The notes beneath the pieces are model-generated. The model did no database searches and was not told where the DNA came from. It saw only the letters and a program-made list of their open reading frames with translations. A DNA stretch of 64,000 nucleotides from Escherichia coli (GTDB lineage Bacteria > Pseudomonadota > Gammaproteobacteria > Enterobacterales > Enterobacteriaceae): assembly GCF_003790525.1 (NCBI RefSeq), contig NZ_CP033635.1; one strand, 5' to 3'. The first letter of the stretch is position 1; each line of letters starts with the position of its first letter. This document shows positions 38,233 to 46,890 of this stretch, in pieces. The translations under genes were made by a program, and so were the position numbers.

Positions 38233-39664
38233 GCCATTTCAGCGCCCGTTTTCGCTGGCAACCCGTCTGACCTTTTTTATCAGCCTGGCCACCATCGCGG
38301 CGTTTTTCGCCTTTGCATGGATCATGATCCACTCGGTAAAAGTGCATTTTGCCGAGCAGGATATTAATGATTTAAAAGAGATTAGCGCCACCCTTGAACG
38401 GGTACTTAATCACCCTGACGAAACGCAAGCCCGACGCTTAATGACGCTGGAAGATATCGTCAGTGGTTATTCCAACGTGTTGATTTCTCTGGTAGATAGC
38501 CACGGTAAAACGGTGTATCACTCCCCCGGTGCGCCGGATATCCGCGAGTTTGCACGTGATGCCATACCCGATAAAGACGCTCGGGGCGGCGAGGTGTATC
38601 TCCTTTCCGGCCCGACAATGATGATGCCAGGCCACGGTCACGGACATATGGAACACAGCAACTGGCGGATGATTAACTTGCCGGTTGGCCCGCTGGTGGA
38701 CGGCAAACCGATTTATACGCTCTACATCGCGCTGTCTATCGATTTTCATCTTCATTACATTAATGATTTGATGAATAAACTTATTATGACCGCATCGGTA
38801 ATCAGCATTCTGATCGTCTTTATCGTGCTGTTGGCGGTACATAAAGGTCACGCGCCGATCCGCAGCGTCAGCCGTCAAATCCAGAACATTACCTCGAAAG
38901 ATCTCGACGTTCGCCTCGATCCACAGACCGTGCCCATTGAACTCGAACAACTGGTGCTGTCGTTCAACCATATGATCGAGCGTATTGAGGATGTCTTTAC
39001 CCGCCAGTCCAATTTCTCAGCGGATATCGCCCACGAAATTCGTACACCAATTACGAATCTCATAACGCAAACGGAAATCGCCCTCAGCCAGTCGCGCAGC
39101 CAGAAGGAGCTGGAAGATGTGCTCTACTCTAATCTCGAAGAGCTGACGCGAATGGCGAAAATGGTCAGCGATATGTTGTTTCTCGCCCAGGCCGATAACA
39201 ACCAGTTAATCCCCGAAAAGAAAATGCTCAACCTGGCGGATGAAGTCGGCAAAGTGTTCGATTTTTTCGAGGCGTTAGCGGAAGATCGCGGCGTGGAGTT
39301 GCGGTTTGTTGGTGACGAGTGTCAGGTTGCGGGCGATCCGCTGATGTTGCGTCGGGCGTTAAGCAACCTACTTTCTAATGCCCTGCGTTATACGCCAACC
39401 GGAGAGACAATTGTCGTGCGCTGCCAGACGGTCGATCACCTGGTGCAAGTTACCGTCGAAAACCCTGGTACGCCCATTGCGCCTGAGCACTTACCGCGAT
39501 TGTTTGACCGTTTCTACCGCATTGATCCTTCCCGCCAGCGAAAAGGCGAAGGTAGCGGTATTGGCCTGGCGATAGTGAAATCGATTGTTGTCGCGCATAA
39601 AGGCACGGTTGCGGTAACGTCAGATGCGCGGGGAACAAGGTTTGTTATCATATTACCCGCTTAA
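38222..39664 (+). CDS. cusS: Copper/silver-sensing histidine kinase
   Basis: 480-aa protein starting [10 protein letters not shown]; overlaps the cusR 3' end by 11 nt. Confidence 0.93.
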
Positions 39665-39813
39665 TCCTTCAGCAAACGGCAACTTTTATAACCAGTGTAA
39701 AAATAACGTGCCGCAATAATCCTACCTATTAATGATAAAAAGCTGTCACAATTCATAAAAAACTTTAATATACGCCACCCTAAACATAACCAGCGTTAAT
39801 GTAAGGTTTTTGT

Positions 39814-42051
39814 GTGGACTGGCTTCTTGATGTTTTTGCTACCTGGCTCTACGGCTTAAAAGTAATCGCGATAACGTTAGCGGTCATCATGTTCATCAGC
39901 GGGCTGGACGATTTTTTTATTGATGTCGTCTACTGGGTACGCCGCATTAAACGCAAGTTGAGTGTTTATCGCCGCTACCCGCGAATGAGTTACCGCGAAC
40001 TGTATAAACCAGATGAAAAACCGTTAGCGATTATGGTTCCGGCGTGGAATGAAACGGGCGTCATCGGCAATATGGCCGAGCTGGCGGCGACCACGCTCGA
40101 CTACGAAAACTATCATATCTTTGTTGGCACCTACCCCAACGACCCCGATACTCAGCGTGATGTTGACGAAGTGTGCGCTCGCTTCCCGAACGTGCATAAG
40201 GTAGTCTGCGCGCGTCCTGGCCCCACCAGCAAAGCCGACTGTCTGAACAACGTGCTGGACGCCATCACCCAATTTGAACGTAGCGCCAATTTCGCTTTTG
40301 CTGGTTTTATTCTGCATGACGCCGAAGATGTGATTTCACCGATGGAATTGCGTCTGTTCAACTATCTGGTCGAGCGTAAAGATCTGATTCAGATCCCAGT
40401 GTATCCGTTCGAACGCGAATGGACGCACTTCACCAGCATGACTTACATTGATGAGTTTTCAGAACTGCATGGCAAAGATGTTCCGGTGCGTGAAGCCCTC
40501 GCCGGACAGGTGCCCAGCGCAGGCGTCGGCACCTGTTTCAGCCGCCGCGCCGTGACCGCTCTGTTAGCTGACGGTGACGGTATTGCTTTCGACGTGCAGA
40601 GTCTGACTGAAGATTACGATATTGGCTTCCGCCTGAAAGAAAAAGGTATGACGGAAATTTTTGTCCGTTTTCCGGTGGTGGACGAAGCCAAAGAACGCGA
40701 GCAGCGTAAATTTTTACAGCACGCACGGACGTCAAACATGATCTGCGTGCGCGAATATTTCCCCGATACCTTTTCGACTGCGGTTCGACAAAAATCTCGC
40801 TGGATCATCGGCATTGTTTTCCAGGGCTTTAAAACCCACAAATGGACCTCCAGCCTGACGCTGAACTACTTTCTCTGGCGCGACCGCAAAGGGGCAATCA
40901 GTAACTTTGTCAGCTTCCTCGCGATGCTGGTGATGATCCAGCTTTTGCTGTTACTGGCGTATGAAAGTTTGTGGCCCGATGCCTGGCATTTCCTTTCTAT
41001 TTTCAGCGGCAGCGCATGGTTAATGACCCTGCTGTGGCTAAACTTTGGTTTGATGGTTAACCGCATCGTGCAGCGGGTGATTTTTGTCACTGGCTACTAC
41101 GGTCTGACGCAGGGGCTGCTATCTGTCCTGCGTCTTTTCTGGGGTAACCTGATTAACTTCATGGCCAACTGGCGCGCGTTAAAACAGGTACTTCAACACG
41201 GCGATCCGCGTCGAGTGGCGTGGGATAAAACAACGCATGACTTCCCCAGCGTGACTGGCGATACCCGCTCGTTGCGCCCGTTAGGTCAAATCCTGCTGGA
41301 AAATCAGGTCATCACTGAAGAACAACTCGATACAGCACTGCGTAATCGCGTCGAAGGTCTACGCCTGGGCGGTTCAATGCTGATGCAGGGGCTGATTAGC
41401 GCCGAGCAACTGGCACAGGCGCTGGCAGAGCAAAACGGCGTGGCGTGGGAATCCATCGATGCCTGGCAGATCCCTTCCTCGCTGATTGCCGAAATGCCGG
41501 CCTCCGTGGCGCTGCATTATGCGGTACTGCCGCTGCGTCTGGACAATGATGAGTTAATTGTCGGCAGTGAAGATGGTATTGACCCGGTTTCGCTGGCGGC
41601 CCTGACGCGTAAAGTCGGACGCAAAGTGCGTTACGTCATTGTTCTGCGGGGACAAATTGTCACCGGATTACGCCACTGGTATGCACGCCGACGCGGTCAC
41701 GATCCGCGGGCAATGTTGTACAATGCAGTTCAGCATCAGTGGCTCACGGAACAGCAGGCCGGTGAAATCTGGCGGCAATATGTGCCGCATCAGTTCCTGT
41801 TCGCCGAAATACTGACCACGCTCGGTCATATTAATCGTTCAGCAATTAACGTGTTGTTATTGCGCCATGAACGCAGTTCTCTGCCGCTCGGCAAGTTTTT
41901 GGTCACCGAAGGCGTTATCAGCCAGGAAACGTTGGATCGCGTCCTGACAATTCAACGCGAATTACAAGTTTCGATGCAATCACTATTACTCAAAGCAGGT
42001 TTAAACACAGAAAAGGTTGCGCAACTGGAGTCCGAAAATGAAGGAGAATAA
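39814..42051 (+). CDS. nfrB: Inner-membrane glycosyltransferase NfrB (phage N4 adsorption protein B; c-di-GMP-binding)
   Basis: 745-aa ORF with a GTG start, an N-terminal membrane/GT2 region and a C-terminal soluble domain; matches remembered NfrB. Confidence 0.93.
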   Translation: MDWLLDVFATWLYGLKVIAITLAVIMFISGLDDFFIDVVYWVRRIKRKLSVYRRYPRMSYRELYKPDEKPLAIMVPAWNETGVIGNMAELAATTLDYENYHIFVGTYPNDPDTQRDVDEVCARFPNVHKVVCARPGPTSKADCLNNVLDAITQFERSANFAFAGFILHDAEDVISPMELRLFNYLVERKDLIQIPVYPFEREWTHFTSMTYIDEFSELHGKDVPVREALAGQVPSAGVGTCFSRRAVTALLADGDGIAFDVQSLTEDYDIGFRLKEKGMTEIFVRFPVVDEAKEREQRKFLQHARTSNMICVREYFPDTFSTAVRQKSRWIIGIVFQGFKTHKWTSSLTLNYFLWRDRKGAISNFVSFLAMLVMIQLLLLLAYESLWPDAWHFLSIFSGSAWLMTLLWLNFGLMVNRIVQRVIFVTGYYGLTQGLLSVLRLFWGNLINFMANWRALKQVLQHGDPRRVAWDKTTHDFPSVTGDTRSLRPLGQILLENQVITEEQLDTALRNRVEGLRLGGSMLMQGLISAEQLAQALAEQNGVAWESIDAWQIPSSLIAEMPASVALHYAVLPLRLDNDELIVGSEDGIDPVSLAALTRKVGRKVRYVIVLRGQIVTGLRHWYARRRGHDPRAMLYNAVQHQWLTEQQAGEIWRQYVPHQFLFAEILTTLGHINRSAINVLLLRHERSSLPLGKFLVTEGVISQETLDRVLTIQRELQVSMQSLLLKAGLNTEKVAQLESENEGE

Positions 42052-45010
42052 CCTTAATCGCGTCATCGGATGGTCTGGTTTACTGCTGACGTCTTTATTG
42101 AGTACCAGCGCACTCGCAGACAATATCGGCACCAGCGCAGAAGAGCTGGGGCTGAGCGATTATCGCCATTTTGTTATTTATCCCCGTCTCGACAAGGCGC
42201 TGAAGGCACAGAAAAATAACGACGAAGCAACCGCCATCCGCGAATTTGAATATATACACCAACAGGTGCCGGATAATATTCCACTAACTTTATACCTTGC
42301 GGAAGCCTATCGCCATTTTGGTCATGATGACCGGGCGCGGCTGTTGCTTGAGGATCAACTGAAACGTCACCCAGGAGATGCCCGACTTGAGCGCAGTCTG
42401 GCGGCTATTCCAGTTGAAGTGAAAAGCGTTACGACTGTTGAAGAACTGCTTGCCCAGCAAAAAGCGTGCGACGCTGCGCCGACCCTGCGTTGTCGCAGTG
42501 AAGTTGGGCAGAATGCCCTGCGGCTGGCACAATTACCTGTCGCCAGAGCGCAACTGAACGATGCGACGTTTGCTGCATCGCCGGAAGGAAAAACGCTGCG
42601 AACCGATCTGCTGCAACGCGCAATCTACCTGAAACAATGGTCCCAGGCAGATACGCTATACAATGAAGCACGCCAGCAGAACACATTAAGCGCGGCAGAA
42701 CGCCGCCAGTGGTTTGATGTGCTTCTTGCCGGGCAGCTGGACGATCGGATCCTGGCGCTGCAATCACAGGGGATCTTCACCGATCCGCAGTCATATATTA
42801 CTTACGCGACCGCGCTGGCTTATCGTGACGAAAAAGCACGCCTCCAGCGTTATCTCATTGAAAATAAGCCGCTGTTTACCACGGACGCACAAGAGAAAAG
42901 TTGGCTCTATCTGTTATCTAAATACAGCGCCAACCCCGTTCCGGCGTTGGCGAATTATACGGTACAGTTTGCCGATAACCGCCAGTATGTTGTTGGCGCG
43001 ACGCTACCGGTGCTGTTAAAAGAAGGTCAGTACGACGCAGCGCAAAAACTGCTCGCCACCCTCCCCGCCAATGAAATGCTTGAGGAGCGTTATACCGTTA
43101 GCGTAGCGACCCATAACAAGGCTGAAGCTCTGCGTCTGGCACGATTGCTGTATCAGCAAGAACCGGCAAATCTTACCCGCCTGGATCAACTGACCTGGCA
43201 ACTGATGCAGAACGAGCAGTCACGCGAAGCTGCCGATTTATTGCTGCAACGCTATCCTTTCCAGGGCGATGCGCGTGTCAGCCAGACGTTAATGGCGCGA
43301 CTGGCGTCTCTGCTGGAAAGTCATCCTTACCTGGCAACGCCGGCGAAGGTGGCGATTTTATCGAAACCCTTACCGCTGGCGGAGCAACGTCAGTGGCAAA
43401 GTCAGTTGCCGGGTATTGCAGATAATTGCCCGGCTATAGTTCGCTTGCTGGGCGATATGTCGCCTTCCTACGATGCCGCCGCCTGGAACCGTCTGGCAAA
43501 GTGTTATCGGGACACGCTACCCGGTGTGGCGTTGTATGCATGGCTTCAGGCCGAACAACGACAACCGAACGCCTGGCAACATCGTGCGGTAGCCTATCAG
43601 GCGTATCAGGTTGAGGACTACGCCACCGCACTGGCGGCCTGGCAGAAAATCAGTCTTCACGACATGAGCAATGAGGATCTGCTTGCTGCTGCCAATACCG
43701 CCCAGGCGGCAGGAAATGGCGCAACTCGCGATCGCTGGCTTCAGCAGGCAGAACAACGTGGGCTGGGAAACAATGCCCTCTACTGGTGGCTGCATGCGCA
43801 ACGTTACATTCCTGGTCAGCCGGAACTCGCACTGAACGATCTCACGCGCTCAATCAATATTGCGCCTTCTGCCAACGCTTACGTTGCGCGGGCGACAATT
43901 TATCGCCAACGTCATAATGTCCCGGCGGCGGTGAGTGATTTGCGCGCCGCGCTGGAACTGGAACCGAATAATAGCAACACCCAGGCAGCGCTCGGTTACG
44001 CCTTGTGGGATAGCGGTGATATCGCACAGTCGCGGGAAATGCTCGAACAGGCGCATAAAGGGCTACCGGACGATCCGGCACTTATCCGACAACTGGCCTA
44101 CGTGAACCAGCGTCTGGATGACATGCCTGCGACGCAGCACTACGCCCGGCTGGTGATTGATGACATTGATAATCAGGCGCTGATAACCCCACTGACCCCA
44201 GAGCAAAATCAGCAACGCTTCAATTTCCGCCGTCTGCATGAGGAGGTCGGTCGCCGCTGGACGTTCAGTTTCGATTCTTCTATCGGCTTGCGTTCCGGCG
44301 CAATGAGTACCGCTAACAATAATGTCGGCGGCGCAGCGCCAGGGAAAAGCTATCGTAGCTACGGGCAACTGGAAGCCGAGTATCGCATCGGACGCAATAT
44401 GCTGCTGGAAGGCGACCTGCTCTCGGTTTACAGCCGTGTATTTGCCGATACCGGAGAAAACGGGGTGATGATGCCGGTGAAAAATCCGATGTCCGGCACC
44501 GGTCTGCGCTGGAAGCCGCTGCGCGATCAGATCTTTTTCCTCGCCGTCGAACAGCAGTTGCCGCTGAACGGCCAAAATGGTGCATCCGATACCATGCTGC
44601 GCGCCAGCGCCTCATTCTTTAATGGCGGCAAATACAGCGACGAATGGCACCCGAACGGTTCAGGCTGGTTTGCCCAAAACCTGTACCTCGATGCAGCGCA
44701 ATATATCCGCCAGGATATTCAGGCGTGGACGGCAGATTATCGCGTCAGCTGGCATCAGAAGGTAGCTAACGGACAGACTATTGAGCCTTACGCTCACGTT
44801 CAGGACAACGGCTATCGTGATAAAGGCACTCAGGGCGCGCAGCTTGGCGGTGTCGGGGTCCGCTGGAATATCTGGACCGGCGAGACGCACTACGACGCCT
44901 GGCCGCACAAAGTCAGTCTCGGCGTCGAGTATCAACATACCTTTAAGGCGATTAATCAACGTAACGGAGAGCGCAACAATGCGTTTCTCACCATTGGAGT
45001 GCACTGGTAA
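42038..45010 (+). CDS. nfrA: Outer-membrane TPR-rich protein NfrA (phage N4 adsorption protein A)
   Basis: 990-aa protein starting MKENNLNRVIGWSGLLLTSLLSTSALA (signal peptide); overlaps the nfrB 3' end by 14 nt. Confidence 0.93.
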   Translation: MKENNLNRVIGWSGLLLTSLLSTSALADNIGTSAEELGLSDYRHFVIYPRLDKALKAQKNNDEATAIREFEYIHQQVPDNIPLTLYLAEAYRHFGHDDRARLLLEDQLKRHPGDARLERSLAAIPVEVKSVTTVEELLAQQKACDAAPTLRCRSEVGQNALRLAQLPVARAQLNDATFAASPEGKTLRTDLLQRAIYLKQWSQADTLYNEARQQNTLSAAERRQWFDVLLAGQLDDRILALQSQGIFTDPQSYITYATALAYRDEKARLQRYLIENKPLFTTDAQEKSWLYLLSKYSANPVPALANYTVQFADNRQYVVGATLPVLLKEGQYDAAQKLLATLPANEMLEERYTVSVATHNKAEALRLARLLYQQEPANLTRLDQLTWQLMQNEQSREAADLLLQRYPFQGDARVSQTLMARLASLLESHPYLATPAKVAILSKPLPLAEQRQWQSQLPGIADNCPAIVRLLGDMSPSYDAAAWNRLAKCYRDTLPGVALYAWLQAEQRQPNAWQHRAVAYQAYQVEDYATALAAWQKISLHDMSNEDLLAAANTAQAAGNGATRDRWLQQAEQRGLGNNALYWWLHAQRYIPGQPELALNDLTRSINIAPSANAYVARATIYRQRHNVPAAVSDLRAALELEPNNSNTQAALGYALWDSGDIAQSREMLEQAHKGLPDDPALIRQLAYVNQRLDDMPATQHYARLVIDDIDNQALITPLTPEQNQQRFNFRRLHEEVGRRWTFSFDSSIGLRSGAMSTANNNVGGAAPGKSYRSYGQLEAEYRIGRNMLLEGDLLSVYSRVFADTGENGVMMPVKNPMSGTGLRWKPLRDQIFFLAVEQQLPLNGQNGASDTMLRASASFFNGGKYSDEWHPNGSGWFAQNLYLDAAQYIRQDIQAWTADYRVSWHQKVANGQTIEPYAHVQDNGYRDKGTQGAQLGGVGVRWNIWTGETHYDAWPHKVSLGVEYQHTFKAINQRNGERNNAFLTIGVHW

Positions 45011-45901
45011 ATGCGTAAGTTCATTTTCGTATTGCTGACACTGCTTTTGGTCAGCCCTTTTTCCTTTGCGATGAAAGGTATTATCTGGCAACCACAAAAC
45101 CGTGATAGTCAGGTTACCGATACCCAGTGGCAGGGGCTGATGAGTCAGTTACGTTTGCAAGGCTTCGATACCCTGGTTTTGCAATGGACTCGTTACGGCG
45201 ATGCATTCACCCAGCCAGAACAGCGCGCGTTATTGTTTAAGCGTGCCGCAGCTGCGCAACAGGCTGGCCTGAAGCTGATTGTCGGGCTGAATGCCGATCC
45301 GGAATTTTTTATGCACCAGAAACAGTCGTCTGCAGCGCTGGAAAGCTATCTTAACCGCCTGCTGGCTGCCGATCTCCAGCAAGCCAGATTATGGAGCGCC
45401 GTACCTGGCGTAACGCCGGATGGCTGGTACATCAGCGCGGAAATTGACGACCTGAACTGGCGCAGCGAAGCCGCCCGTCAGCCTTTGCTAACATGGTTAA
45501 ACAACGCGCAGCGGTTGATTAGCGATGTTTCAGCAAAACCGGTTTATATCAGTAGTTTTTTCGCCGGAAACATGTCGCCCGATGGCTATCGCCAACTGCT
45601 GGAACACGTTAAAGCAACCGGCGTTAATGTCTGGGTACAGGATGGCAGCGGCGTGGATAAACTGACCGCTGAACAGCGTGAACGCTATCTACAGGCCAGC
45701 GCCGATTGCCAAAGCTCCGCCCCAGCAAGCGGCATTGTTTATGAACTGTTTGTCGCCGGCAAAGGCAAAACCTTTACAGCGAAACCGAAACCGGACGCAG
45801 AAATTGCCTCGCTGTTAGCGAAACGTTCCTCTTGCGGTAAAGACACGCTCTATTTCTCTCTGCGCTATTTGCCCGTCGCGCACGGCATTCTCGAGTATTA
45901 A
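45011..45901 (+). CDS. ybcH: Periplasmic protein YbcH, third member of the nfrB-nfrA-ybcH unit
   Basis: 296-aa ORF with a signal peptide; its ATG directly abuts the nfrA TAA stop. Confidence 0.9.
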   Translation: MRKFIFVLLTLLLVSPFSFAMKGIIWQPQNRDSQVTDTQWQGLMSQLRLQGFDTLVLQWTRYGDAFTQPEQRALLFKRAAAAQQAGLKLIVGLNADPEFFMHQKQSSAALESYLNRLLAADLQQARLWSAVPGVTPDGWYISAEIDDLNWRSEAARQPLLTWLNNAQRLISDVSAKPVYISSFFAGNMSPDGYRQLLEHVKATGVNVWVQDGSGVDKLTAEQRERYLQASADCQSSAPASGIVYELFVAGKGKTFTAKPKPDAEIASLLAKRSSCGKDTLYFSLRYLPVAHGILEY

Positions 45902-46083
45902 ATCTCCTCCAGGTAAGTCGGGTACGACCTGGCTTACCTCTTTCGCTCTCGTCAGAATTCCATCAAGATTAATTGCTAAAAAGCGTGCTAAAGAAAGAAG
46001 ATCGTTATCGGCGAACGGGCCGATCACTCATGCAGGAAGCATAGATCCTTTGAGCGGAGTTTCTGATATCTGAGGAGTGCGAA

Positions 46084-46845
46084 ATGCAATTGAGCAGCAG
46101 TGAACCTTGCGTGGTGATCCTGACCGAAAAAGAGGTAGAGGTAAGCGTCAATAACCATGCTACGTTTACCCTTCCGAAAAACTACCTGGCCGCCTTCGCG
46201 TGCAACAATAACGTCATTGAACTCTCAACGTTAAATCACGTATTAATCACCCACATCAACCGTAACATCATCAACGATTATCTGTTGTTTTTAAATAAGA
46301 ACTTAACCTGTATAAAGCCCTGGTCGCGGCTGGCAACTCCGGTTATCGCTTGTCATAGCCGTACACCGGAAGTGTTCCGGCTAGCCGCCAACCACAGCAA
46401 GCAGCAACCCAGCAAACCCTGCGAAGCGGAGTTGACGCGCGCATTGCTTTTTACCGTATTGTCTAACTTTCTTGAGCAATCGCGGTTTATTGCCCTACTG
46501 ATGTATATCTTACGCAGCAGCGTCCGCGACAGCGTCTGCCGCATTATTCAAAGCGATATTCAGCATTACTGGAATCTGCGAATTGTCGCCAGTTCGCTAT
46601 GTTTAAGCCCCAGCCTGCTCAAAAAGAAATTAAAAAACGAAAATACCAGCTATAGCCAGATTGTCACAGAGTGTCGTATGCGTTACGCCGTACAGATGTT
46701 ATTGATGGATAACAAAAATATCACTCAGGTAGCGCAATTATGTGGCTATAGCAGCACGTCGTACTTTATCTCTGTTTTTAAGGCGTTTTACGGCCTGACA
46801 CCGTTGAATTATCTCGCCAAACAGCGACAAAAAGTGATGTGGTGA
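46084..46845 (+). CDS. envY: AraC-family transcriptional regulator of porin thermoregulation
   Basis: 253-aa ORF MQLSSSEPCVVILTEKEVEV with a C-terminal AraC helix-turn-helix; recognised as EnvY. Confidence 0.9.
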   Translation: MQLSSSEPCVVILTEKEVEVSVNNHATFTLPKNYLAAFACNNNVIELSTLNHVLITHINRNIINDYLLFLNKNLTCIKPWSRLATPVIACHSRTPEVFRLAANHSKQQPSKPCEAELTRALLFTVLSNFLEQSRFIALLMYILRSSVRDSVCRIIQSDIQHYWNLRIVASSLCLSPSLLKKKLKNENTSYSQIVTECRMRYAVQMLLMDNKNITQVAQLCGYSSTSYFISVFKAFYGLTPLNYLAKQRQKVMW

Positions 46846-46890
46846 AGGGCAAAGCGGAAACGGATAAGACGGGGATAAATGAAGAAGAAA

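What the first reader, a model, noticed from the sequence alone, without database searches (positions are those of the whole stretch)
39814..45901. nfrB-nfrA-ybcH unit with overlapping or abutting reading frames
nfrA begins 14 nt before the nfrB stop, and the ybcH ATG immediately follows the nfrA TAA, indicating translational coupling of an inner-membrane glycosyltransferase, an outer-membrane TPR protein and a periplasmic protein. This matches the reported c-di-GMP-dependent exopolysaccharide secretion pathway that serves as the phage N4 receptor. NfrB has a GTG start and a soluble C-terminal domain after the membrane/GT2 region.
Basis: partly seen in the sequence, partly recalled or inferred. 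Interest (0 to 1): 0.3.

Follow-up and report, generated by a model that had tools for sequence, protein, structure and literature searches.

The report
E. coli nfrB-nfrA-ybcH exopolysaccharide operon
This is the well-known E. coli nfrB-nfrA-ybcH operon, a c-di-GMP-switched machine that makes and exports a surface sugar polymer which phage N4 uses to attach; it is intact and ordinary here.

Summary
nfrB is 39814-42051 with a GTG start. nfrA is 42038-45010 and overlaps nfrB by 14 nt. ybcH is 45011-45901, and its ATG directly follows the nfrA TAA in the same frame.

The stretch is E. coli core chromosome. It is 100% identical to strain SMS-3-5, and the proteins are 99.7%, 98.9% and 98.3% identical to K-12 NfrB, NfrA and YbcH.

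- NfrB residues 483-625 match MshEN by Pfam, NCBIfam and PDB sequence search.
- A confident AlphaFold model of this region matches c-di-GMP-bound MshE and PilF structures.

Two smaller points go beyond the papers I read:
- NfrB has a second, conserved MshEN-type repeat array at its extreme C-terminus (residues 662-743).

Verdict: already known, low interest.

The parts
39665..39813 (+). cusS-nfrB intergenic spacer (149 nt, AT-rich). It presumably holds the operon promoter and a weak AAGG Shine-Dalgarno 7 nt before the GTG.
   Evidence: Sequence read. No sigma-70 consensus hit here and no good sigma-28 match (best 10/16 in the spacer, 11/16 inside cusS). The promoter position is therefore unresolved. 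FliA dependence is taken from PMC8669469.
39814..42051 (+). nfrB: inner-membrane processive family-2 glycosyltransferase with a cytoplasmic c-di-GMP receptor domain (745 aa, GTG start).
   Evidence: NCBIfam NF008411 gives 1332 bits. 743/745 identical to K-12 NfrB.
40021..40959 (+). NfrB GT2 catalytic domain (residues 70-382) with D169 (DxD region), T265-E-D267 and Q326-K-S-R-W330.
   Evidence: Pfam PF13632 (E 2e-40) and PF13641 (E 3.5e-35). Residues checked against PMC8669469.
41260..41688 (+). NfrB MshEN domain (residues 483-625). The tandem 24-residue c-di-GMP motifs are 489-512 and 517-540.
   Evidence: NCBIfam NF053729 hit at 489-540 and Pfam MshEN at 542-628. PDB sequence hits to PilF, PilB and MshE. 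The AF2 model (pLDDT 90.8) matches c-di-GMP-bound 8pfa, 8pdk and 5htl (E about 5e-6, TM 0.70-0.75).
41797..42042 (+). Second MshEN-type repeat array at the NfrB C-terminus (residues 662-743). Repeat 2A is 662-685 (degenerate), 2B is 691-714 (near-canonical, PLGKFLVTEGVISQETLDRVLTIQ) and 2C is 720-743 (partial). Its last codons overlap the nfrA start.
   Evidence: Fragment 640-745 alone scores 47.5 bits on NF053729, cut-off 38. Eight of 8 distant homologues score 25.9-56.3 bits. A profile of site 1 finds the region in 19/19 sequences; 18 of them exceed all 2000 shuffles. The region is conserved in alignment A1 and helical-hairpin in the model.
42038..42051 (+). 14-nt nfrB/nfrA overlap (nfrA ATG ... 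nfrB TAA), with GGAG 7 nt upstream of the ATG.
   Evidence: The same statement appears in PMC8669469. There is no significant RNA structure here (z 0.38).
42038..45010 (+). nfrA: outer-membrane export protein (990 aa). It has a predicted signal peptide (residues 1-27, ALA|DN), a periplasmic TPR region and a C-terminal NfrA_C domain (residues 809-977, nt 44462-44968).
   Evidence: Pfam NfrA_C (E 1e-67) plus TPR families; NCBIfam NF007302 gives 1886 bits over 1-990. 979/990 identical to K-12.
45011..45901 (+). ybcH: periplasmic DUF4434 protein (296 aa), predicted (beta/alpha)8 glycoside-hydrolase-like barrel. Its ATG abuts the nfrA TAA in the same frame.
45911..45939 (+). 13-bp hairpin 10 nt after the ybcH stop, followed by a pyrimidine-rich tract. 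It is the likely 3' end or terminator of the operon.
   Evidence: Fold gives -19.1 kcal/mol, z -3.83, with 0 of 200 shuffles as stable. The consensus terminator scan did not call it, because the U-run is imperfect.

Best explanation
The region is the intact nfrBA-ybcH operon of E. coli, a three-gene synthase-dependent exopolysaccharide system.

NfrB sits in the inner membrane. Its family-2 glycosyltransferase domain polymerises a sugar, reported to derive from WecB-made UDP-ManNAc. [quoted passage not shown] NfrA, a TPR plus C-terminal outer-membrane protein, conducts the polymer across the periplasm and outer membrane. The surface glycan, and then NfrA itself, are used by phage N4 for adsorption.

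The 14-nt overlap and the stop/start abutment, each with an internal GGAG, most likely couple translation of the three proteins from one low-abundance mRNA. That mRNA starts with a GTG and a weak Shine-Dalgarno sequence and ends at a stable hairpin after ybcH.

My own additions are inferences:
- YbcH is the system's periplasmic glycoside-hydrolase-type enzyme, the counterpart of BcsZ, PgaB-C, PslG or AlgL, and not a mere scaffold.
- NfrB carries a second MshEN-type repeat array at its C-terminus that may bind a second c-di-GMP or act as a regulatory or docking module.

Shown here: gene anatomy, orthology, domains, folds and conservation. Taken from the literature: c-di-GMP binding, GT-dependent N4 infection, and the DgcJ, WecB and FliA dependence. 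Inferred: translational coupling, YbcH hydrolase activity and any function of the second site.
For: - Coordinates and junctions.
- Identity: 100% to E. coli SMS-3-5, annotated nfrB/nfrA/ybcH. Proteins are 99.7%, 98.9% and 98.3% identical to K-12.
- Domains: GT2, MshEN, NfrA_C plus TPR, and DUF4434, with equivalog scores far above the cut-offs.
- Functional residues are intact.
- MshEN fold: AF2 pLDDT 90.8 and Foldseek hits to c-di-GMP-bound PilF-GSPIIB and MshE, E 4e-6, TM 0.70-0.75.
- Literature: Kd 1 uM, GT and MshEN mutants impaired in N4 plating, 14-nt overlap, operon. NGR glycan and WecB requirement.
- Conserved synteny with a WecB-like epimerase and with tight junctions (three overlapping, one 8-nt gap) in distant relatives.
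- Present in 5243 of 5426 complete E. coli genomes.
- Second motif.
- 3' hairpin.
Against: - No recognisable sigma-28 or sigma-70 promoter lies in the 149-nt upstream spacer. The reported FliA dependence may therefore be indirect, or the promoter atypical.
- Translational coupling is not demonstrated, and the junction RNA shows no special structure.
- ybcH is dispensable for N4 plating and only partly needed for the motility phenotype. This fits an accessory hydrolase but equally fits a non-essential scaffold.
- YbcH has no sequence match to any solved structure or any CAZy-type Pfam family. Foldseek hits also included non-hydrolase TIM barrels.
- The second MshEN array lacks both Arg residues of the RLG motif and has Ala in place of the critical Gly in its first repeat. 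A single mutation in site 1 (G491L) gives the strongest loss of infection: complete in PMC8669472, the most profound reduction in PMC8669469. Site 2 therefore cannot substitute for site 1.
Confidence: 0.93

Rival explanations
1. This is the older view. NfrA and NfrB are simply protein receptors or uptake components for phage N4. NfrA is the outer-membrane receptor bound by the N4 tail sheath and NfrB is an inner-membrane partner. No polysaccharide is made, and the gene arrangement only ensures co-expression.
For: NfrA is still considered a protein receptor in a second adsorption step (PMC10211494). The Pfam and NCBIfam names ('Bacteriophage N adsorption protein A', 'phage receptor') reflect this history. 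The polymer itself has not been chemically characterised in any paper I found.
Against: NfrB has a complete processive GT2 active site, and point mutants D169A, D267A and W330A abolish N4 plating without changing protein level. WecB (UDP-ManNAc) is required, but the rest of the ECA pathway is not. Distant homologues carry a wecB-like epimerase gene directly upstream. The third gene has a glycoside-hydrolase-type fold.
Confidence: 0.04
2. YbcH is a non-catalytic periplasmic scaffold or inner-membrane-anchored adaptor that bridges NfrB and NfrA, as the literature proposes. Its barrel would be a carbohydrate-binding or structural relic and not an enzyme.
For: This is the reading stated in PMC8669469 and PMC10211494. 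The ybcH deletion has a mild phenotype. The typical clan GH-A Asn-Glu dipeptide is absent, since the sequence is Ala143-Glu144. There is no sequence similarity to any characterised glycoside hydrolase family.
Confidence: 0.35
3. The overlap and abutment of the reading frames are just compact gene packing typical of bacterial operons. Each gene would be translated independently from its own Shine-Dalgarno sequence, with no coupling.
For: Both nfrA and ybcH have their own GGAG at workable distances. No RNA structure sequesters the nfrA start (z 0.38). Short overlaps are very common in bacterial operons generally (established knowledge).
Against: Tight junctions (4-nt and 8-nt overlaps, one 8-nt gap) are maintained at both boundaries in relatives with under 50% protein identity. 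This suggests selection for juxtaposition. The authors of PMC8669469 positioned their tag to avoid polar effects on NfrA initiation.
Confidence: 0.3

Closest known systems
E. coli K-12 NfrB-NfrA-YbcH (Nfr / N4 glycan receptor system; Junkermeier & Hengge 2021, Sellner et al. 2021)
   Same: Same genes, order, 14-nt overlap, stop/start abutment and flanking cusS and envY. Proteins are 99.7%, 98.9% and 98.3% identical, and all experimentally probed residues are conserved.
   Different: There are only a few substitutions: NfrB E577D and Q734K, 11 in NfrA and 5 in YbcH. In this strain envY lies directly next to tRNA-Arg(UCU). The DLP12 prophage, appY and ompT, which follow envY in K-12, are absent.
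Synthase-dependent exopolysaccharide systems: cellulose BcsA/B/C/Z, PNAG PgaABCD, alginate Alg8/44/K/E/L
   Different: The c-di-GMP receptor is an MshEN domain fused to the synthase, not PilZ (BcsA, Alg44) or the PgaC/D interface. The system is minimal, with three genes. The polymer is thought to be ManNAc-based and is chemically undefined. YbcH belongs to no characterised GH family by sequence.
MshEN / GSPII c-di-GMP receptor domains of MshE (5HTL) and Thermus PilF (8PDK)
   Same: Tandem 24-residue RLGxx(L/V/I)(L/V/I)xxG(L/V/I)(L/V/I)xxxxLxxxLxxQ motifs and the same fold. Like PilF, NfrB has more than one MshEN-type module.
   Different: The domain is attached to the C-terminus of a membrane glycosyltransferase and not to the N-terminus of a secretion ATPase. 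The first motif has Pro489 and Gln498 where MshE has Arg9 and Gly18. The second array consists of the helical motif repeats only, without the C-terminal alpha/beta subdomain.

Membership tests
NfrB, c-di-GMP-activated glycosyltransferase (NCBIfam NF008411 equivalog) | Full-length match above the curated equivalog cut-off | tested here: met
   1332.3 bits against a cut-off of 1170, covering residues 7-728. 743/745 identical to K-12 NfrB.
NfrB, c-di-GMP-activated glycosyltransferase (NCBIfam NF008411 equivalog) | Processive GT2 signatures DxD, TED and QxxRW | tested here: met
   D169 (HDAED), T265-E-D267 and Q326-K-S-R-W330 are present. These are the positions named in PMC8669469.
NfrB, c-di-GMP-activated glycosyltransferase (NCBIfam NF008411 equivalog) | Binds c-di-GMP and needs it for activity | not testable with these tools
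   Published for the K-12 protein, with Kd 1.0 uM by MST on residues 414-745. Here there is only sequence and fold evidence.
MshEN c-di-GMP receptor domain | Two tandem 24-residue motifs with the conserved Leu, Gly and Gln positions | tested here: met
   Motifs at 489-512 and 517-540, with L490, G491, L505, L509, L518, G519, L533, L537 and Q540. NF053729 scores 67.6 bits against a cut-off of 38.
MshEN c-di-GMP receptor domain | MshEN/GSPII fold | tested here: met
   AF2 model with pLDDT 90.8. Foldseek against PDB gives 8pfa, 8pdk and 5htl at E 4e-6 to 7e-6 and TM (target) 0.70-0.75 over about 142 columns.
MshEN c-di-GMP receptor domain (second, C-terminal array, residues 662-743) | Sequence match to the 53-residue motif model, and conservation | tested here: met
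   The fragment alone scores 47.5 bits against a cut-off of 38. Eight of 8 distant homologues score 25.9-56.3 bits, all with E of 6e-6 or better; counting E. coli, 5 of 9 reach the cut-off. The internal-repeat test beats shuffles.
MshEN c-di-GMP receptor domain (second, C-terminal array, residues 662-743) | Canonical RLG at the start of both motifs, including the Gly whose mutation abolishes binding | tested here: inconclusive
   Repeat 2A has L662-F-A664 in place of RLG. Repeat 2B has P691-L-G693. The hydrophobic triad positions (F663/L707/L711 and I678/L682/L692) and Q714 are kept. Binding is untested.
Synthase-dependent exopolysaccharide secretion system | Outer-membrane export protein with periplasmic TPRs | tested here: met
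   NfrA has TPR_19, TPR_14 and TPR_8 hits plus NfrA_C at 809-977 (E 1e-67), and a signal peptide. The beta-barrel fold was not modelled here; it is predicted in PMC8669472.
Synthase-dependent exopolysaccharide secretion system | Periplasmic polymer-hydrolysing or polymer-modifying enzyme encoded in the operon | tested here: inconclusive
   The YbcH fold is that of a glycoside hydrolase and has invariant acidic residues. Activity is unknown.
Clan GH-A (4/7 superfamily) glycoside hydrolases, for YbcH | (beta/alpha)8 barrel with carboxylates at the C-terminal ends of strands 4 and 7 | tested here: met
Clan GH-A (4/7 superfamily) glycoside hydrolases, for YbcH | Sequence membership in a characterised GH family, and the Asn-Glu acid/base dipeptide | tested here: not met
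   There is no Pfam hit other than DUF4434 even at E 10. There is no PDB sequence hit. The residue before E144 is Ala. YbcH therefore has a GH-A-like fold but is not a demonstrated member of a known GH family.
Translationally coupled operon genes | Stop/start overlap or abutment with a Shine-Dalgarno sequence inside the upstream gene, conserved in relatives | tested here: met
Translationally coupled operon genes | Downstream translation depends on upstream translation | not testable with these tools
   This needs reporter-fusion experiments.

The most novel reading that the evidence does not exclude
NfrB may be a two-site c-di-GMP receptor. Beside the characterised MshEN motif (489-540), a conserved second array of MshEN-type repeats at the extreme C-terminus (662-743) would bind a second c-di-GMP, or mediate the specific docking of DgcJ. 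This would give the synthase cooperative or locally gated activation. In the same system YbcH would be the founding characterised member of a new glycoside hydrolase family (DUF4434) acting on the ManNAc-based N4 receptor glycan. Neither point is mentioned in the primary papers or the review I searched.
Probability: 0.3. Interest if true: 0.45.

Novelty: already known. Interest (0 to 1): 0.15.

Why it matters
As a finding it mostly confirms correct annotation. The operon is a textbook-level example of local c-di-GMP signalling and of a phage receptor glycan. It is core to E. coli, present in about 97% of complete genomes. The practical value is limited to noting that this strain has an intact Nfr system, so it is predicted to be adsorbable by N4-like and other NGR-dependent phages if c-di-GMP and WecB are available.

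The two side observations, a second MshEN-type array in NfrB and a hydrolase-type fold for YbcH, are cheap to test. They would refine the mechanistic model of a system whose polymer is still chemically undefined.

Tried and rejected
- Promoter search. No sigma-70 consensus site lies in the cusS-nfrB spacer. The best sigma-28 (TAAAGTTT-N11-GCCGATAA) match is 11/16 and lies inside cusS; such scores occur about 150 times in the window. I could not place the FliA-dependent promoter reported in the literature.
- Consensus terminator scan after ybcH found nothing. A direct fold did find a strong hairpin.
- RNA structure at the nfrB/nfrA junction that might gate nfrA initiation: none (z 0.38).
- Rfam scan of 39000-47500 found only the tRNA-Arg.
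- Sequence-only searches for YbcH relatives with solved structures, both single sequence and profile, found nothing. Relaxed Pfam found nothing beyond DUF4434.
- The search for full-length distant NfrB homologues with the C-terminal fragment returned mostly truncated proteins. I therefore used encoding contigs of YbcH homologues to obtain full operons.
- Opposite-strand ORFs of 80-177 aa inside the genes were treated as chance ORFs, since the plus-strand genes fully account for the region.
Full report
**Observation**

The window between 39814 and 45901 contains three plus-strand reading frames exactly as described:
- 39814-42051, GTG start, 745 aa.
- An ORF whose RefSeq start is the ATG at 42038 and which ends at 45010, 990 aa.
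- 45011-45901, ATG start, 296 aa.

I read the junctions directly.
- nfrB/nfrA: the nfrA ATG is 42038-42040 and the nfrB TAA is 42049-42051. This is a 14-nt overlap counted to the end of the stop codon, with nfrA one base further along in frame.
- nfrA/ybcH: the nfrA TAA is 45008-45010 and the ybcH ATG is 45011-45013. There is no spacer and the frame is the same.

Each downstream start is preceded by GGAG inside the upstream gene, 7 nt before nfrA and 11 nt before ybcH. nfrB itself has only AAGG before its GTG.

**Identity**

Megablast against 5,426 complete E. coli genomes finds the 6,088-bp stretch in 5,243 of them. It is contiguous over at least 80% of its length in 5,048.
- Several strains, including SMS-3-5, are 100% identical. 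RefSeq annotates the same coordinates as nfrB (mislabelled "nrfB" in many records), nfrA and ybcH.
- The flanks are cusRS/cusCFBA upstream and envY downstream, the same neighbours as in K-12 MG1655.
- The three proteins are 743/745, 979/990 and 291/296 identical to the K-12 proteins.
- G+C is 50-58% across the operon, ordinary for the E. coli core.

NfrB:
- It matches the NCBIfam equivalog "cyclic di-GMP-activated glycosyltransferase NfrB" at 1332 bits, cut-off 1170.
- It has Pfam GT2 domains at 70-382 and a Pfam MshEN hit at 542-628.
- The NCBIfam 53-residue "c-di-GMP_motif" maps to 489-540.
- Sequence search of the PDB returns only MshEN/GSPII domains of PilF, PilB and MshE, for residues about 487-625.

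I modelled residues 483-745 with a 19-sequence alignment (AlphaFold2, mean pLDDT 90.8). Foldseek against the PDB puts c-di-GMP-bound PilF-GSPIIB (8pfa, 8pdk) and MshE (5htl) on top, at E 4e-6 to 7e-6 and target TM 0.70-0.75 over about 142 columns. The nucleotide-binding fold is therefore present and the stated refutation condition is not met.

All residues that the literature mutated are present: D169, D267, W330, L490, G491, L505, L509, L518, G519 and L537.

Hydropathy shows strongly hydrophobic stretches only at about 7-40 and 360-388. From roughly residue 460 onward the protein is soluble.

NfrA has a signal peptide (…SALA|DN), TPR hits and the NfrA_C domain at 809-977. It matches its equivalog over all 990 residues.

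YbcH has an N-terminal hydrophobic segment and DUF4434.

**What is already published**

PMC8669469 (Junkermeier & Hengge 2021) describes:
- the nfrBA-ybcH operon, including the 14-nt overlap;
- the GT2 and MshEN domains;
- specific c-di-GMP binding by NfrB(414-745) with Kd about 1 uM;
- FliA-dependent low-level post-exponential expression;
- loss of N4 plating in GT active-site mutants, graded loss in MshEN mutants, and the requirement for WecB but not the rest of the ECA pathway;
- direct interaction with DgcJ;
- ybcH being dispensable for N4 plating and only partly required for the motility phenotype.

PMC8669472 (Sellner et al. 2021) independently proposes the ManNAc-based "N4 glycan receptor". 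A 2023 review (PMC10211494) summarises the two-step adsorption model, glycan first and then NfrA.

**Mechanism**

Shown here are the anatomy, the orthology, the domains and the folds. Taken from the cited papers are the biochemistry and the genetics. What remains inferred is the following.
- Translation of the three genes is coupled.
- The mRNA probably ends at the 13-bp hairpin at 45911-45939 (-19.1 kcal/mol, z -3.83, 0 of 200 shuffles as stable).

The argument for selected juxtaposition is comparative. In a Rhodanobacter genome and in a metagenomic contig, YbcH is 44% and 49% identical respectively. The order there is a WecB-like epimerase, then GT2/MshEN, then NfrA_C, then DUF4434. Both junctions overlap by 4 nt in the Rhodanobacter locus. 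In the metagenomic locus the first overlaps by 8 nt and the second is an 8-nt gap. The junction RNA shows no special structure (z 0.38).

I could not locate the promoter. No sigma-70 consensus lies in the 149-nt spacer. The best sigma-28 match is 11/16, inside cusS, at a score that is common in the window.

**Addition 1: a second MshEN-type array in NfrB**

The NCBIfam motif model reported two stretches in NfrB.
- Scanned alone, residues 640-745 still score 47.5 bits, above the 38-bit cut-off. The best register is 665-714.
- By eye there are three consecutive 24-residue repeats. 2A (662-685) is LFAEILTTLGHINRSAINVLLLRH and is degenerate at the RLG position. After a 5-residue spacer, 2B (691-714) is PLGKFLVTEGVISQETLDRVLTIQ and is near-canonical. 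2C (720-743) is partial.
- The region is conserved in homologues of 45-65% identity, with L682, L683, V697 and Q714 invariant and G693 and L711 nearly so.
- The C-terminal fragments of eight distant homologues all hit the same model at 25.9-56.3 bits.
- A profile built only from site 1 of the family finds the C-terminal region in 19 of 19 sequences at 12.7-28.4 bits. Among 2,000 shuffles the best score was 16.9 and the next 9.4.
- In the model this region forms short-helix/long-helix hairpins like those of site 1.

Measured against the contacts described for MshE (PMC5013675), both hydrophobic triads and one of the two Gln are retained. Both Arg residues are missing, and the first Gly is Ala.

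The primary paper does not mention a second motif. Its binding construct contained both regions. [quoted passage not shown] Site 2 cannot replace site 1, and its function is open. I put about 30% on it binding c-di-GMP.

**Addition 2: YbcH has a glycoside-hydrolase fold**

- With a 36-sequence alignment (down to 42% identity), the AlphaFold2 model has pLDDT 91.9 and is an eight-stranded beta/alpha barrel.
- Sequence searches find no solved relative and no Pfam family beyond DUF4434.
- Foldseek gives mixed TIM barrels at modest TM.
- Glu144, with Asp146 and Asp147, lies at the end of strand 4 (138-146). Glu245 lies at the end of strand 7 (241-245). All are invariant. That is the 4/7 catalytic geometry of clan GH-A, although the usual Asn-Glu dipeptide is Ala-Glu here.

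The literature calls YbcH a potential scaffold. I think an accessory periplasmic hydrolase, like BcsZ, PgaB-C, PslG or AlgL, is more likely, at about 60%. That role would also fit the mild deletion phenotype.

**Comparison and novelty**

This is the K-12 Nfr system itself in another strain: already known. It works like the Bcs, Pga and Alg synthase-dependent systems. It differs in using a fused MshEN receptor in place of PilZ and in having only three genes. Membership tests for NfrB, MshEN and the synthase-dependent architecture are met. YbcH meets the fold and catalytic-geometry criteria of clan GH-A but not sequence membership of any characterised GH family.

**Verdict**

The finding is ordinary and fully explained by published work. 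Interest is low (0.15). The most novel reading not excluded is a two-site c-di-GMP receptor plus a new hydrolase family, with probability about 0.3 and interest about 0.45 if true.

Noticed in passing
window 46084-46967: envY (46084-46845) is followed after 45 nt by tRNA-Arg(UCU) argU on the minus strand (46891-46967). In K-12 the 21-kb cryptic prophage DLP12, together with appY and ompT, lies between argU and envY. Here the argU attachment site is empty and ompT and appY are absent at this position.
   Followed up: partly
window 39665-39813: The 149-nt AT-rich spacer upstream of nfrB has no recognisable sigma-28 or sigma-70 consensus, although the operon is reported to be FliA-dependent. The promoter is unplaced.
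   Followed up: partly
window 45011-45070 (YbcH residues 1-21): The YbcH N-terminus ends ...S18-F-A20|M-K, which fits the -3/-1 rule for signal peptidase I, and A20 is nearly invariant in homologues. The literature states that the protein lacks a cleavage site and stays membrane-anchored. This is worth re-examining.
   Followed up: no
E. coli genomes: NZ_CP142035.1 3581578-3589001; NZ_CP065615.1; NZ_CP028733.1: The operon is not universal. 183 of 5,426 complete genomes have no match and about 195 more have only partial or interrupted copies. Examples are an IS3-family insertion in strain HS4, loss of nfrB and the 5' part of nfrA in FDAARGOS_943, and a near-total deletion in strain H2. Four matching places are on plasmids. 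Phage-driven loss is possible but was not analysed.
   Followed up: no
L003 2728-3840 and L004 2360-3493: In distant relatives (Rhodanobacter and a metagenomic contig) a WecB-like UDP-GlcNAc 2-epimerase gene sits directly upstream of the nfrB homologue. This agrees with the published ManNAc-substrate idea. L003 also carries two HipA-type toxin modules and a reverse-transcriptase gene just downstream.
   Followed up: no
protein hits P0094 and P0190: Some database proteins look like fusions. One joins a YbcH fragment to AraC-type HTH domains (EnvY-like). Another is an omptin-annotated 'protease' with a short NfrB C-terminal match. These are probably deletions or mis-assemblies in individual strains.
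   Followed up: no
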